Below are positions 16,760 through 22,410 of a stretch of DNA of 64,000 nt, piece after piece. Position numbers and translations under genes: made by a program. Each line of letters starts with the position of its first letter. Position 1 is the stretch's first letter. Where the stretch lies: positions 1 through 64,000 of IMG/VR virus record IMGVR_UViG_3300019458_000191, one strand, 5' to 3'. This DNA is from a virus. The notes beneath the pieces are model-generated. The model made no database searches and was not told the DNA's origin. It saw only the letters and a list, made by a program, of their open reading frames with translations.

Positions 16760-16849
16760 TGGTAGTCCTGTAGCGAGTCGAACGCTATCCCGGCACTGAT
16801 CTAGTGCGAATGTTGTTATAAGCAACACGTCCCTCCAAGGGTCAGGACC
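16760..16849 (-). tRNA. atypical tRNA, anticodon UAU (nominally Ile), with long variable arm and minimal D-arm
   Basis: GGTCCTG/CAGGACT acceptor stem + A-CCA; anticodon loop CTTATAA; T-arm TAGCG-TTCGACT-CGCTA; V-arm GCACT-AGATC-AGTGC. Confidence 0.8.
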
Positions 16850-16950: not shown

Positions 16951-17136
16951 TTATCTTCTATTCAAATTTCGACTTCGTTTTAACGGAAGCCAACGATTTG
17001 CAAATTCTTCATTATTCATTAACTTATGTTTAAAGTAATCAAAGTTGCCTGCCATTGGCTGACAATTATCAACATACCTTTCGTATGCTGTATTTAATTC
17101 TTTATCAGAATACTCGATAATTCTAGTTAATTTCAT
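16951..17136 (-). CDS. small hypothetical protein
   Basis: 61-aa ORF downstream of a promoter. Confidence 0.55.
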   Translation of the reverse strand: MKLTRIIEYSDKELNTAYERYVDNCQPMAGNFDYFKHKLMNNEEFANRWLPLKRSRNLNRR

Positions 17137-17234: not shown

Positions 17235-17262
17235 AGTATAACAGACTTTTAAGTATTGTCAA
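17235..17262 (-). promoter_or_regulatory. sigma70-type promoter for the small ORF / tRNA / ncRNA cluster
   Basis: TTGACA-16 nt-TATACT with extended -10 TG. Confidence 0.7.
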
Positions 17263-17321
17263 GAAACAATTACAATTACAACAGGGGTGCTAGGCGTGGA
17301 TGGTGGTTCAGTTGGTGGCAT
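17259..17321 (-). CDS. 20-aa micropeptide MPPTEPPSTPSTPVVIVIVS
   Basis: Manual translation; closely matches the C-terminal 14 aa of the upstream Fn3 protein. Confidence 0.55.
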   Translation of the reverse strand: MPPTEPPSTPSTPVVIVIVS

Positions 17322-17342
17322 AGGTATTTATATAAAATTAAG

Positions 17343-17375
17343 AAAACACCCCCGCTTTTAACAGGGGTGTTTTTT
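17343..17375. terminator. intrinsic terminator-like hairpin
   Basis: AAAACACCCC...GGGGTGTTTT(TT). Confidence 0.7.
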
Positions 17376-17393
17376 GGTTTAATGTATTGTCAA

Positions 17394-17678
17394 TTAGGAA
17401 ACAATGACTGTAACAGATGGGGTTTCAGGAGCCGAAGGAAGACCGGGGGTACTTCCAACTCCAGAGAAACCGCTGTTGCCAGCCAAATTTTGAGCCAACA
17501 CTTTGTAAGCATAAATGCCGGGAAGTGGATTCAAAATGTCATAGCTTGGTGATGGCGAAGCCAATACCGTAGCTTTGAAGGTGAAACTTGCACCATTTAC
17601 TGATTCCCATAATTGATAACTAGTTACTTGTTCAGATGGGTTATTTGCTGCCCAAGTGATGTGTATAGTTGTTGCCAT
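17394..17678 (-). CDS. stand-alone fibronectin type III domain protein, apparently circularly permuted
   Basis: ITW, VTSYQL, LPGIYAYKVLAQNLAGNS Fn3 signature; C-terminal PSAPETPSVTVIVS. Confidence 0.8.
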   Translation of the reverse strand: MATTIHITWAANNPSEQVTSYQLWESVNGASFTFKATVLASPSPSYDILNPLPGIYAYKVLAQNLAGNSGFSGVGSTPGLPSAPETPSVTVIVS

Positions 17679-17804
17679 AATTAATCCTTTTTGTTAATTC
17701 GTATCCGTCATTGGATACAATAATAAATAGATATAATATTAACATTTATTGTATTTTTATAAAAATAAATTTACTTGATGGCGAGGGGTTTATGAAAAAT
17801 GAAA

Positions 17805-17879
<75 letters not shown>

Positions 17880-17948
17880 GTAATATTCAATGGTTTCGGT
17901 TCCTAGTCACTCAATTAAGGTAAGCTACAGTCTTACCACCATCAAAAT

Positions 17949-18022
17949 TGGAGCAGGTAACTGGAATCGAACCAGCACTTCAGCATTGGCAATGCCGTGG
18001 GCTACCACTACACCATACCTGC
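17949..18022 (-). tRNA. tRNA-Gly(GCC)
   Basis: GCAGGTA...loop TTGCCAA...GGTTCGATTCC...TACCTGCTCCA. Confidence 0.96.
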
Positions 18023-18328
18023 AATCTGATAAGTTCGGATGCCTCTTATTTGGGATTTTCTTACACCGATATCGGATACTAATGTATCACAGTTGACTTA
18101 TCAAAAACTTTAAAATTCTACTTCGGCCGAAAGACAACCACCAATCGGAATTCCGCCGATAGTGATTTTAGCCATTTCCTTTATTGAGAAACAGCCGCCG
18201 ATTTTTACAAATCGACCTTCTTTGGCTACATTTTCGCCTTTAATCATGGTAATACATATACCACCAAAAATAAAAAATGTCAAGCATTTATTGGTTTTTA
18301 TAAAAACATTGACAAATTCACAAAGTCT

Positions 18329-18712
18329 ATGTACCTTATGGTAACAATGAAAACTTACTACGCAGAAAGAACACAAAGTTGTGGCGAGGAAAATGTTTGG
18401 ATTTCTGAAAATGGTGTTGACCGATTGCTTCCGGTTGAACCAAGTATAAAGGTTATTCATCACGCACCAGGATTTCAATGGGGTTATGCCGGTTCAGGCC
18501 CCTCCCAATTAGCTTTAGCAATTCTTTTAGATTTTACTAAAGGTAACATTCAAATGTCTAAAGATTTTTATCAACGTTTCAAGTTTGAGTTCGTTGCAAA
18601 ATGGCAAGATTCATGGAGTATTACAGAGAATGAAATACACGCATGGATAAAAGAAAATTTTGACAACATTCTTGATAAAAAAGATGAAGATAAAAAGAAA
18701 TTTGGAATGTAA
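18329..18712 (+). CDS. DUF6166-like protein (likely start 18347)
   Basis: HHAPGFQWGYAGSGPSQLALAILLD...YQRFKFEFVA. Confidence 0.75.
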   Translation: MYLMVTMKTYYAERTQSCGEENVWISENGVDRLLPVEPSIKVIHHAPGFQWGYAGSGPSQLALAILLDFTKGNIQMSKDFYQRFKFEFVAKWQDSWSITENEIHAWIKENFDNILDKKDEDKKKFGM

Positions 18713-20898: not shown

Positions 20899-22410
20899 AT
20901 GAAAAAGAACACGAAAATCAAAAAGTCTCAAGTCTCTCCTGCGGTTGGTAATGCCCTTGTTGCCGGATTAGCCAAAGTTAGTAACACTACTCTAACAGAG
21001 AATGGTGCATTAACTAATAAGAGTACTCTTTCTCATACGTTGGATTTCTTCGGTCAAGGTGGAGCACTTCGCACCCGCGAAGAATCTGATATTAATTCCC
21101 TATTTTCTAAAGCATTTGCTGAAAACCGTCTTGCAGCAATGAAGACTTTGTTTTATTTGCGTGATGTCCGTGGTGGACAAGGTGAACGCAAAACTTTTCG
21201 CACAATCCTTCGTTGGCTCGCAGTCAATCAACCAGAAGTTCTTCGTAAGAACTTGGAAAATGTTTCATTTTTTGGTCGTTGGGATGATTTGTATTCTCTC
21301 GTTGGAACACCCTTAGAAAATGAGATTTTCAAAATCATTGCTCTACAGTTAACGAATGATATGGTTGCAATGAAGAAAGAAGAATCGGTTTCATTGTTAG
21401 CAAAATGGTTGAAGAGTGAAAACACTTCTTCCAAGGAATCGTGCCGCCTTGGCCGTTTGACTCGTGAACGACTCGGTTTTTCTCCAAAGAAATACCGAAA
21501 GACTCTTTCTGCTCTCCGACGTTATATCAACGTCGTTGAAGTTAGTATGTGTGCAAATCAATGGGACAACATTGATTTTAGTAAGGTTACTTCCAAAGCA
21601 GCATTAACTTATAAGAAAGCGTTTGGTAAACACAATCCAACCGGCTTTGAAAATTTCTTGAAGAAAGTCGAATCAGGAGAAGTCAAGATTAATGCAGGTG
21701 CATTATATCCTTATGAAATTCTTCGTTCGATCATTCATGAAAATGATAATATGTCTCTTCGTAGCTTAGACCTTCAATGGAAGTCAATGCCTAATTGGGT
21801 GGGAGATGAAGATAATTACTTTATGGTTATTGCGGATACGAGTGGCTCTATGGCTGGATTACCTATATTAGTTTCTGTATCTTTAGCTTTATATCTTTCC
21901 GAAAGAAATGTTGGTCCTTTTAAAGATTGTTGGATTAATTTTAGTAATAATCCAACATTTCAAAAAGTTATTGGAAATACTTTGAAAGAAAAATGGGAAA
22001 ATATTGACAAAGAAAATTGGGATGGAAGCACAAATCTGATTTCTGCTTTTGAATTGATTTTATCTACGGCCAAAAAATTTAATGTTTTACAAAAAGATTT
22101 ACCTAAAAATTTAATAATAATTTCGGATATGGAGTTTAATATTGCTTCCGATAGTAATGATAAAACAAATTTTGAAATGATTGAAGAAAAATATAAAGAA
22201 AATGGATACATCATACCAAAGTTAATATGGTGGAATGTAAATTCAAGAAATGATAATTGTCCTATTACCAAAGATGATAACGGAACGTGTTTAGTTAGTG
22301 GATGTTCTCCGTCTATATTCAAATCAGTATTGAGTGGAAAAGAATTTAATCCTGTCGATGTTATGTTAGAAATAATCAATAAAGAAAGATATGATAGAGT
22401 TATGATTTAA
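20899..22410 (+). CDS. DUF2828 family TROVE/Ro60-like protein with C-terminal vWA domain
   Basis: TLTENGA, LRDVRGGQGERKTF, GRWDDL, LLAKWL, DTSGSM (MIDAS), IISDMEF, IWWNV. Confidence 0.88.
   Translation: MKKNTKIKKSQVSPAVGNALVAGLAKVSNTTLTENGALTNKSTLSHTLDFFGQGGALRTREESDINSLFSKAFAENRLAAMKTLFYLRDVRGGQGERKTFRTILRWLAVNQPEVLRKNLENVSFFGRWDDLYSLVGTPLENEIFKIIALQLTNDMVAMKKEESVSLLAKWLKSENTSSKESCRLGRLTRERLGFSPKKYRKTLSALRRYINVVEVSMCANQWDNIDFSKVTSKAALTYKKAFGKHNPTGFENFLKKVESGEVKINAGALYPYEILRSIIHENDNMSLRSLDLQWKSMPNWVGDEDNYFMVIADTSGSMAGLPILVSVSLALYLSERNVGPFKDCWINFSNNPTFQKVIGNTLKEKWENIDKENWDGSTNLISAFELILSTAKKFNVLQKDLPKNLIIISDMEFNIASDSNDKTNFEMIEEKYKENGYIIPKLIWWNVNSRNDNCPITKDDNGTCLVSGCSPSIFKSVLSGKEFNPVDVMLEIINKERYDRVMI

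What the first reader, a model, noticed from the sequence alone, without database searches (positions are those of the whole stretch)
17259..17678. Circularly permuted Fn3 protein plus a separately encoded 20-aa copy of its terminal strand: possible donor-strand polymer and cap
Seen: the 94-aa protein starts at Fn3 strand B (TTIHITW) and ends with a strand-A-like segment (PSAPETPSVTVIVS). 72 nt downstream an unannotated mini-ORF encodes MPPTEPPSTPSTPVVIVIVS, matching that segment at 10 of 14 positions with diverged codons and the same C-terminal end. Established: Fn3 domains normally begin with PxxPxxLxV (strand A), and Ig-like pilins polymerise by donor-strand complementation. Inference: subunits could chain head-to-tail into a fibre (virion decoration), with the peptide capping the open groove or limiting length. 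A terminator-like hairpin between them would make the peptide sub-stoichiometric.
Basis: partly seen in the sequence, partly recalled or inferred. Interest (0 to 1): 0.75.

Follow-up and report, generated by a model that had tools for sequence, protein, structure and literature searches.

The report
Strand-shifted phage Fn3 protein plus tail remnant
A small phage protein is a fibronectin-type domain that lacks its first strand and carries that strand at its far end, a conserved design that could let copies plug into one another, while the nearby 20-residue mini-gene looks like a leftover gene end rather than a working cap.

Summary
ORF 17394-17678(-) encodes a 94-aa Fn3 domain that starts at strand B (Pfam fn3 positions 12-78) and ends in a linker plus a strand-A-like tail. 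72 nt downstream, in the same frame, a 20-codon ORF repeats that tail at 10 of 14 residues.

The shifted architecture is not a quirk of this phage. At least 57 protein clusters of about 91 aa share the same start and the same C-terminal end, and every one I could place on DNA lies on a viral contig. The tail is as conserved as the core. AlphaFold2 does not fold the tail back, and the linker is too short for canonical self-complementation. Docking onto another copy, as a chain or a dimer, is therefore the best reading, but it is untested.

The "cap peptide" is not supported. The repeat runs 16 nt past both stop codons, so it is a DNA-level repeat. The mini-ORF lies between a strong terminator and the next promoter. 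None of 12 related loci has a second tail. Its codon divergence (dN/dS about 0.2) and its equal likeness to other members' tails fit a displaced allele's 3' end.

The scan has noted similar split-Fn3 systems on other DNA.

The parts
17394..17678 (-). Gene for the 94-aa strand-A-less Fn3 protein, with an AAGGA ribosome-binding motif 8 nt upstream of the ATG
   Evidence: Family membership: (E 5.6e-38 to the family profile). Fn3 fold. Pfam fn3 positions 12-78.
17397..17438 (-). Copy A, the last 14 codons of the gene (PSAPETPSVTVIVS): linker plus orphan strand A
   Evidence: Aligns to the next repeat's strand A in tandem Fn3 protein P0082. VTVIV is invariant in the 7-member subgroup.
17378..17393 (-). 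Copy A of the 16-nt post-stop repeat. It contains TTGACA, but I saw no -10 box at 16-18 nt.
   Evidence: (family D8). The promoter scan lists no site here.
17343..17373 (-). Intrinsic-terminator-like hairpin with a U-rich tail, ending the tRNA-Gly/Fn3 transcription unit
   Evidence: 14 pairs, 6 G-C. (-20 kcal/mol, z -4.59).
17259..17321 (-). 20-codon mini-ORF. Its last 14 codons are copy B of the tail. Most likely the displaced 3' end of an earlier allele or paralogue.
   Evidence: No Shine-Dalgarno-like motif upstream.
17235..17262 (-). Sigma-70-type promoter (TTGACA, 16 nt, TATACT; 11 of 12 with TG) whose -35 box overlaps the mini-ORF stop codon. It holds copy B of the post-stop repeat (17247-17262).
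16951..17136 (-). 61-aa gene of unknown function, the first gene downstream of that promoter
   Evidence: No Pfam or PHROG match.
17806..18022 (-). Two co-oriented tRNA-Gly genes (UCC and GCC) directly upstream of the Fn3 gene, probably the same transcription unit
   Evidence: Weak promoter-like site at 18104..18076(-).

Best explanation
The 94-aa protein is a genuine, conserved phage protein. It is a six-stranded Fn3 domain that lacks strand A, so its edge beside strand B is open (a 'socket'). After a Pro-rich linker it carries an orphan strand A at its very C-terminus (a 'plug').

The Fn3 termini lie at opposite poles, and the linker has the same length as between domains of covalent tandem Fn3 arrays. 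The plug therefore cannot reach its own socket in the canonical geometry. It most likely inserts into the socket of another copy. That would give non-covalent head-to-tail chains that mimic a tandem Fn3 array, or a reciprocal dimer; I cannot tell which.

The fold, the register, the conservation and the absence of a fold-back in the models are shown. The docking between copies is inferred.

The 20-codon mini-ORF is most likely not a working partner. It looks like the displaced 3' end of an earlier allele or paralogue of the same gene, left behind when a segment carrying the present gene end and a terminator was joined in. It sits in a transcriptional gap between that terminator and the promoter of the next gene.
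For: Family:
- phmmer against 1.84 billion representatives gave 1386 hits. They include full-length relatives of about 90 aa, such as P0043 at 59% identity.
- A profile search restricted to 47-170 aa gave 57 clusters, most of them 91 aa.
- In the 58-row alignment, 54 of 58 rows end at the same column. P81 is present in 57 of 58, and position 89 is V, I or L in 57 of 58. Mean pairwise identity is 0.44 for the tail and 0.48 for the core.
- In the 7-member subgroup nearest the window (50-59% identity), VTVIV is invariant.
- ESM Atlas: the nearest clusters (91 aa with 103 members, 94 aa with 73 members) are listed as 100% viruses.

Register:
- Pfam fn3 positions 12-78 and 13-80.
- The tail aligns to the next repeat's strand A in a tandem protein.
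- Forms whose N-termini look to me like signal peptides (P0202, P0114, P0139, P0145) would start at strand B after cleavage and also end in an extra strand A (read by eye).

No fold-back:
- With 8 sequences the tail has pLDDT below 50.
- With 58 sequences the model has mean pLDDT 90.8 and no strand after residue 77.
- The VIA-align rows that span residues 1-94 are tandem Fn3 pairs.

No other partner seen:
- There is one family gene per record in 5 of 5 related virus records, two of them 93-100% complete. The only further hits are two weak ones (16.5 and 12.4 bits). A Pfam fn3 search of the same five records gave nothing over the cut-off.

Mini-ORF:
- The repeat includes 16 non-coding nt.
- It lies between the terminator and the next promoter.
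- No same-strand second tail was found in 12 of 12 related loci.
- pS 0.64 against pN 0.23, with third positions identical at 5 of 14 against 22 of 28 for positions 1 and 2. The two copies therefore diverged while both were being translated.
- The mini-ORF tail is as close to the tails of P0183 (11 of 14) and P0185 (10 of 14) as to the adjacent gene's tail (10 of 14).
Against: - No result here shows that two copies bind.
- With 58 sequences AlphaFold2 gives the tail pLDDT 77-89 without pairing it to anything. That also fits a plain extended tail.
- The shifted register could be a historical accident of excision from a tandem array.
- The mini-ORF keeps an ATG, an intact frame and a tail within the family's range. 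Its protein-level conservation (dN/dS about 0.2) is also what a functional peptide would show.
- The near-identity of the post-stop 16 nt beside saturated third codon positions is not explained by a simple remnant model.
- This phage rarely uses Shine-Dalgarno motifs (23 of 96 long ORFs against 13% background), so the missing motif is weak evidence against translation.
- No locus of the closest subgroup (P0043, P0152, P0159, P0183, P0185) could be fetched. The 12 loci without a mini-ORF encode proteins only about 40-55% identical to the window's.
Confidence: 0.45

Rival explanations
1. Subunits chain head to tail by strand donation, and the separately translated 20-residue peptide, made in small amounts by terminator read-through, fills the open socket at one chain end and limits fibre length.
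For: - The mini-ORF tail lies within the family's range: 11 of 14 to P0183 and 10 of 14 to the adjacent gene.
- The codon pattern shows protein-level constraint (pS 0.64, pN 0.23).
- The ATG and the frame are intact.
- The upstream region is AT-rich, and the phage seldom uses Shine-Dalgarno motifs.
- A terminator lies between the two ORFs.
Against: - No second tail is present in 12 of 12 related loci.
- The repeat extends into non-coding DNA.
- No promoter was found between the terminator and the ATG. The next promoter's start site lies downstream of the mini-ORF.
- The invariant T of the subgroup's VTVIV is I in the mini-ORF.
- The family tail profile scores it 5.6 bits (domain) against 24.2 bits for the real tail. 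That score carries a large composition correction.
Confidence: 0.07
2. The protein is an adaptor rather than a self-polymer. Its plug docks into a strand-A-less Fn3 socket on another phage or host protein, or its socket accepts a strand-A tag from another protein. This is the pattern of the 'split Fn3' tag-and-socket pairs that this scan noted on other DNA.
For: - Earlier notes of this scan describe orphan strand-A tags beside strandless Fn3 domains in other genomes (AI notes, leads only).
- Only 26% of this phage genome is in the record, so partners could lie outside it.
Against: - In the 89,913-nt record no other ORF matches the family profile, Pfam fn3 or the tail profile.
- In five related virus records, two of them 93-100% complete, there is one family gene each and only two weak further Fn3-like hits.
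- Plug and socket sit on the same polypeptide throughout the family.
Confidence: 0.15
3. There is no strand complementation. The six-stranded domain is stable alone, and the conserved C-terminal tail has another role, such as binding a capsid, an envelope or a nucleic-acid partner, or acting as a stability or turnover signal. The shifted register only reflects descent from one unit of a tandem Fn3 array.
For: - The query aligns in the same shifted register to internal repeats of giant tandem proteins, for example 3-93 to P0003 and to P0082. That is compatible with excision of one repeat unit.
- AlphaFold2 models a well-packed six-stranded core without strand A, with pLDDT 86-94 in the core blocks.
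- The gene sits among tRNA genes, not in a recognisable structural module.
Against: - The tail is conserved like the core and ends at a fixed position.
- What is conserved is exactly the Fn3 strand-A pattern, and the protein starts exactly where that strand would end.
- The same design recurs in forms that appear to be secreted, with one or two domains.
Confidence: 0.25

Closest known systems
Type V pili of Bacteroidota (FimA, Mfa1): protease-mediated strand exchange
   Same: A C-terminal donor strand of one subunit occupies the groove left by a missing N-terminal strand of the next subunit, giving a head-to-tail polymer (PMC13655056, passages read). This is the closest match in logic: the C-terminal plug replaces an N-terminal strand.
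   Different: - Type V pilins are large, two-domain, lipidated, secreted proteins. Their groove is opened by gingipain cleavage, and the donor strand is first self-complemented.
- Here there is one 94-aa Fn3 domain and I see no signal peptide.
- No strand is removed, because the socket is open from synthesis. No protease or anchor pilin is evident.
- There is no sequence relationship, and binding is untested here.
Chaperone-usher pili (Pap/Fim), CPR Pam pili and TasA fibres: donor-strand complementation or exchange
   Same: An incomplete Ig-like fold is completed by a strand from the neighbouring subunit. Sources: PMC13278184, passages read; PMC9674648, listing and start of abstract only; Pap/Fim from my own knowledge and as described in PMC13655056.
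   Different: - In Pap/Fim the missing strand is the last one (G) and the donor is an N-terminal extension.
- Those systems need a chaperone and an usher and act outside the cytoplasm.
- Here the missing strand is the first one (A), the donor is C-terminal, and no chaperone-like gene is adjacent.
Covalent tandem Fn3 arrays and Fn3 or Ig-like domains of phage structural proteins (for example tip attachment protein J)
   Same: The same fold and detectable sequence similarity: 28-38% identity to the repeats of most of the multi-repeat proteins listed. ESM Atlas lists J-type Ig-like clusters among its look-alikes. The linker plus strand A of the tail aligns to the junction between two tandem domains.
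   Different: Those domains are complete and covalently linked. Here a single domain is cut between strands A and B, so the junction would have to form non-covalently.
Anastellin (fragment of fibronectin III-1) and engineered strand-swapped Fn3 scaffolds
   Same: Fn3 fragments that lack N-terminal strands expose an edge and promote strand exchange and polymerisation (PMC13233970 and PMC9772232, starts of abstracts only). A consensus Fn3 scaffold solved as an N-terminal strand-swapped form (4m6a) is among the fold matches (title only).
   Different: Those are a laboratory fragment and engineered proteins. Here the arrangement is a natural, conserved gene product that carries its own matching strand.

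Membership tests
Fibronectin type III domain (Pfam PF00041) | Sequence match to the family profile above the curated cut-off (25 bits) | tested here: not met
   There was no hit at E <= 0.1 in hmmscan. The one-genome search gave 13 bits, E 0.008, positions 12-78 of 84. Relative P0043 scores 21 bits. Five of the 57 short relatives carry a precomputed PF00041 label. The protein is a divergent member by sequence.
Fibronectin type III domain (Pfam PF00041) | Seven-stranded beta-sandwich fold (A, B, E and C', C, F, G) | tested here: inconclusive
   Six of the seven strands are modelled. Foldseek and VIA-align match Fn3 domains over residues 1-79 (best Z 10.3, rmsd 2.0, 74 aligned). Strand A is absent at the N-terminus, and a strand-A-like segment sits at the C-terminus.
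Unnamed family of about 91-aa phage Fn3 proteins (this report) | Length 87-99 aa, starts M-x-T-T at strand B, ends right after P-[ST]-x-P-x3-[TV]-V-x-V-x-x-[ST] | tested here: met
   The window protein matches the family profile at E 5.6e-38 over its full length and aligns end to end.
Donor-strand complementation polymers (type V, chaperone-usher, Pam, TasA) | Subunit fold lacks one strand and so exposes a groove | tested here: met
   Strand A is missing by profile register and in both models.
Donor-strand complementation polymers (type V, chaperone-usher, Pam, TasA) | The same subunit carries a terminal extension that matches the missing strand | tested here: met
   The tail aligns to strand A of the next tandem repeat and is conserved like the core.
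Donor-strand complementation polymers (type V, chaperone-usher, Pam, TasA) | The extension inserts into the neighbouring subunit, and a filament is observed | not testable with these tools
   This needs a structure, cross-linking or microscopy. The monomer models only show that the tail is not paired in cis.
Donor-strand complementation polymers (type V, chaperone-usher, Pam, TasA) | Export signal and dedicated assembly factors (chaperone, usher or protease) | tested here: not met
   I see no signal peptide in the window protein (sequence). The neighbouring genes give no such Pfam or PHROG match. Four relatives do have N-termini that look to me like signal peptides (read by eye).
Translated micropeptide gene (the mini-ORF) | Conserved as an ORF in related genomes | tested here: not met
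   No same-strand second tail-like ORF occurs beside the family gene in 12 of 12 fetched loci. No locus of the closest subgroup was available.
Translated micropeptide gene (the mini-ORF) | Own promoter or ribosome-binding signal | tested here: inconclusive
   No promoter-like site was found between the terminator and the ATG, and there is no Shine-Dalgarno-like motif. Only 23 of 96 long ORFs of this phage have such a motif.
Diversity-generating retroelement (variable and template repeats) | Mismatches between the two repeats fall at adenines of the template copy | tested here: not met
   By my count from the codon table, copy B has A at 5 of the 15 mismatches and copy A has A at 4 of 15. The repeats are only about 61-64 nt long.

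The most novel reading that the evidence does not exclude
A widespread, unannotated family of about 91-aa phage proteins assembles without chaperone, usher or protease into non-covalent 'tandem Fn3' chains. Each subunit would donate its C-terminal strand A to the open edge of the next. This would be a minimal, self-contained donor-strand polymer made of one Fn3 domain. In this phage a free strand-A peptide might additionally cap it.
Probability: 0.3. Interest if true: 0.75.

Novelty: new variant of a known kind. Interest (0 to 1): 0.5.

Why it matters
If the family self-assembles by strand donation, it would be the smallest known donor-strand system, a single 90-residue Fn3 domain with plug and socket on one chain. 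It would be encoded by phages and made in the cytoplasm without assembly factors. That would extend the pilus principle to viruses. It would also give a simple natural building block for protein fibres.

This also bears on the scan's wider set of 'split Fn3' observations. Here both halves sit on one protein, so a single expressed gene would test the idea.

The mini-ORF matters less. It is probably a recombination scar, and it shows how phage genes are replaced piecemeal.

Tried and rejected
- **Complex prediction**. Two copies with the 8-row alignment gave ipSAE 0.21 twice against a mark of 0.42. The tool's verdict was 'no answer' and the controls were not run. This is neither for nor against binding.
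- **Sequencing runs**. Two cave-metagenome DNA runs hold the stretch, and no RNA holder is listed, so nothing can be said on expression. Laying their contigs gave two identical contigs with no variants. They may be the source of this DNA, so they are not independent and give no population data.
- **Close relatives' DNA.**
  - IMG/VR scans with the window protein, P0043, the window+P0043 alignment and the 7-member subgroup alignment found no relative.
  - The scan with P0159 found only a weak partial match (L008, 41% over residues 7-50), which I did not examine further.
  - The one metagenome scan found only a 30%-identical repeat (L007).
  - GenBank phages gave no match with the window protein or with P0168.
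  - The genome-contig scan gave 14 hits at 27-41% identity and one short partial hit at 55% (L021). I take them to lie in larger Fn3 proteins but did not inspect them.
- **Pfam, PHROGs and cluster look-up.** Pfam and PHROGs give no name to the 94-aa protein. The exact cluster look-up gave no names or accessions.
- **Family tail profile**. The mini-ORF scores low (5.6 bits domain, 2.5 overall, E about 42) against 24.2 bits for the real tail. I do not lean on this, because direct comparison shows the mini-ORF tail is as near to other members' tails as any and the score carries a large composition correction.
- **Diversity-generating retroelement.** Rejected, because the mismatches are not adenine-specific.
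- **Stop-codon read-through.** Rejected, because there are four in-frame stops of mixed kinds.
- **Translational bypass of the T4 gene 60 kind** (recalled). Considered only by eye. The hairpin starts 20 nt after the stop, not at it, and nothing supports it.
- **Simple tandem duplication.** Rejected, because the 72 nt after copy A and the sequence after copy B are unalike.
- **Recent horizontal arrival of the gene.** Not supported. GC3 is 0.33 against a genome mean of 0.28 (sd 0.06).
- **Literature.** Searches (2 papers; 1 paper; 3 papers) listed no paper that, by title or start of abstract, describes a natural strand-A-less Fn3 with a C-terminal donor strand in phages. I saw listings only, apart from the passages named elsewhere in this report. 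No supplementary files were consulted.
- **Regex limits.** My tail pattern missed the real tail of L029. It also gave off-target hits that I judged to be chance: the same opposite-strand site 1.8 kb away in L002-L005, and an antisense overlap in L030.

Full report
**Where the window lies.** The window is the first 64 kb of an 89,913-nt IMG/VR virus record that CheckV rates 26% complete. The same protein is on record on a 340,916-nt contig. The source is therefore a low-GC (34%) jumbo phage, and the two runs that hold it are cave metagenomes. An RIIA homologue and a helicase are among the named genes.

**The observation.**
- The two ORFs are 72 nt apart and in the same frame, with four in-frame stops between them.
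- The last 14 residues agree at 10 of 14. In a six-frame scan of the whole record (179,744 words) the next best match to the tail is 6 of 14, so the repeat is real.
- Between the two ORFs lies a 14-pair hairpin with a U-rich tail. It folds at -20 kcal/mol with z -4.6.

**The fold and its register.**
- Pfam does not reach its cut-off.
- The weak match runs from fn3 position 12 to 78, and the 59%-identical relative P0043 matches positions 13-80. The first dozen profile positions, which form strand A, are absent.
- AlphaFold2 with 8 sequences gives six strands and leaves residues 80-94 below pLDDT 50.
- With 58 sequences the model reaches mean pLDDT 90.8. The tail blocks average 89 (residues 81-90) and 77 (91-94), but no strand is assigned after residue 77.
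- Foldseek and VIA-align match Fn3 domains over residues 1-79 (best Z 10.3, rmsd 2.0).
- The VIA-align rows that span residues 1-94 are tandem Fn3 pairs at rmsd 5-6. The tail therefore points as the linker and first strand of a following domain would.
- BLASTP against the natural tandem protein P0082 aligns residues 5-93 continuously, with the tail opposite the next repeat's opening segment.
- The protein is thus one Fn3 unit cut between strands A and B. It starts where strand A would end and finishes with strand A.

**It is a family, not an accident.**
- phmmer against 1.84 billion representatives found 1386 proteins at E <= 0.001. Most of the best 150 are multi-repeat proteins, many with over a thousand residues. 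Seven are full-length relatives of 87-97 aa.
- A profile search limited to 47-170 aa found 57 clusters, all unnamed or 'hypothetical', most of them 91 aa.
- In the 58-row alignment, 54 rows end at the same column. P81 is kept in 57 of 58, and position 89 is V, I or L in 57 of 58. Mean pairwise identity is 0.44 for the tail and 0.48 for the core.
- In the seven sequences nearest the window (50-59% identity) the block VTVIV is invariant. It is the longest invariant run in the protein.
- ESM Atlas lists as nearest clusters a 91-aa one (103 members) and a 94-aa one (73 members), both 100% viruses.
- Species-representative prokaryote genomes gave only weak hits at 27-41% identity and one short partial hit at 55%.
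- Four relatives have N-termini that look to me like signal peptides, by eye and without a predictor. These are one single-domain form (P0202) and three two-domain forms (P0114, P0139, P0145). Their mature ends would also begin at strand B, and they also finish with an extra strand A.

**How it most likely works.**
- Fn3 termini lie at opposite poles of the domain (established knowledge).
- The tail's P-S-x-P motif corresponds to the very start of an Fn3 domain, and only about three residues separate it from the end of strand G.
- The tail therefore cannot reach its own strand-B edge in the canonical direction. Neither model folds it back.
- The linker has the length seen between domains of covalent arrays. 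The tail of one copy could therefore complete another copy in the geometry of a tandem array.
- The outcome could be an open chain or a reciprocal antiparallel dimer. I cannot tell which.
- In five related virus records, two of them 93-100% complete, there is one family gene each. The only further hits are two weak Fn3-like ones. In this record nothing else matches the family, Pfam fn3 or the tail profile. A separate partner is therefore not in sight, and self-association is the simplest reading.
- All of this is inference. No result here shows binding.

**The mini-ORF.**
- Against the cap idea:
  - The repeat does not stop at the stop codons. A 16-nt stretch follows both, 15 of 16 identical with one gap, and its 10-nt core occurs nowhere else in the record. 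This is duplicated DNA, not only a duplicated peptide.
  - Copy B's TTGACA overlaps the mini-ORF stop. With TATACT 16 nt on, it forms an 11-of-12 promoter for the next gene. The mini-ORF thus lies upstream of that start site and downstream of the terminator, and could only be transcribed by read-through.
  - In 12 related loci (L002-L006, L009, L025-L030) no second same-strand tail is present. These loci encode proteins only about 40-55% identical to the window's, and my pattern was imperfect.
- Pointing the other way:
  - The 14 codons show pS 0.64 against pN 0.23. Third positions are identical at 5 of 14, against 22 of 28 for the first two positions.
  - The peptide's tail is as close to the tails of P0183 (11 of 14) and P0185 (10 of 14) as to its neighbour's.
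- This pattern means that the two copies diverged while both were being read as protein. The most economical account is that copy B is the 3' end of an earlier allele or paralogue. It would have been displaced when a segment carrying the present gene end and the terminator was joined in by illegitimate recombination, as is common in mosaic phage genomes (general knowledge).
- In relatives L026/L027 and L028 the stop codon is likewise followed within a few bases by TTGACA. That fits copy B as the original arrangement.
- The near-identity of the post-stop 16 nt next to saturated third positions remains unexplained.

**Context.**
- The gene follows two co-oriented tRNA-Gly genes and precedes the unusual tRNA-Ile(UAU).
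- In 11 of the 12 related loci, which are high-GC viral contigs, a co-oriented tRNA with anticodon CAU lies 14-532 nt from the gene.
- A resolvase-type recombinase lies upstream in three of the three loci scanned.
- The meaning of this linkage is open. Nothing places the gene in a virion module.

**Comparison with what is known.**
- The logic is closest to type V pili, where a C-terminal donor strand takes the place of an N-terminal strand (PMC13655056, passages).
- More loosely it resembles chaperone-usher pili, Pam pili and TasA.
- It differs in fold size, in having no export signal in the window protein, and in having no visible chaperone, usher or protease. It also differs in that the socket would be open from synthesis.
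- Three literature searches listed no description of such a natural Fn3 (listings only).
- This scan has noted related 'split Fn3' tag-and-socket systems on other DNA. Those notes are leads, not support.

**Verdict.** The anatomy is real and conserved. Self-assembly is plausible and cheaply testable. The cap peptide is probably a recombination remnant.

Noticed in passing
L002-L005 3290-3364; L009 3899-3972; L025 5811-5888; L026 2749-2820; L027 5333-5404; L028 3177-3247; L029 4493-4568; L030 4659-4734; window 17806-18022 and 16760-16849: In 11 of 12 related viral loci a co-oriented tRNA with anticodon CAU lies 14-532 nt from the small Fn3 gene. In the window the gene sits between two tRNA-Gly genes and the odd tRNA-Ile(UAU). 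I did not determine whether the CAU tRNAs are Met or lysidine-type Ile tRNAs.
   Followed up: partly
L004 2213-2995; L025 3550-4317; L029 3359-4072; L009 2601-3311: A resolvase-type serine recombinase (PF00239, E 2.9e-22 to 2.4e-29 in the three loci scanned) lies just upstream of the Fn3 gene in the high-GC viral contigs. Downstream come two or three paralogous genes of 260-293 aa and a gene of 624-643 aa, none with a Pfam or PHROG match.
   Followed up: partly
L025 6003-6074: ARAGORN reports a tRNA with a four-base anticodon (ttga) next to tRNA-Trp in a viral contig rated 100% complete. It could be a frameshift-suppressor-like tRNA or a caller artefact.
   Followed up: no
window 17701-17718: A perfect 6-bp inverted repeat with a 6-nt loop lies about 25 nt upstream of the Fn3 start codon, between the tRNA-Gly genes and the ribosome-binding motif. 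It could be a processing or regulatory hairpin.
   Followed up: no
proteins P0202, P0114, P0139, P0145 (no loci): One-domain and two-domain relatives have N-termini that look to me like signal peptides. After cleavage their first domain would also start at strand B, and they also end in an extra strand A. The shifted register therefore recurs in apparently secreted proteins.
   Followed up: partly
window 18329-18712: A DUF6166 protein (E 1.8e-23) is encoded divergently just upstream of the tRNA-Gly pair. The 503-aa gene at 20899-22410 carries DUF2828 and DUF7788.
   Followed up: no
window-wide (96 ORFs of at least 120 aa in the 89,913-nt record): Only 23 of 96 long ORFs have a Shine-Dalgarno-like motif upstream, against 13% at random positions. 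This suggests a host with weak Shine-Dalgarno use.
   Followed up: no
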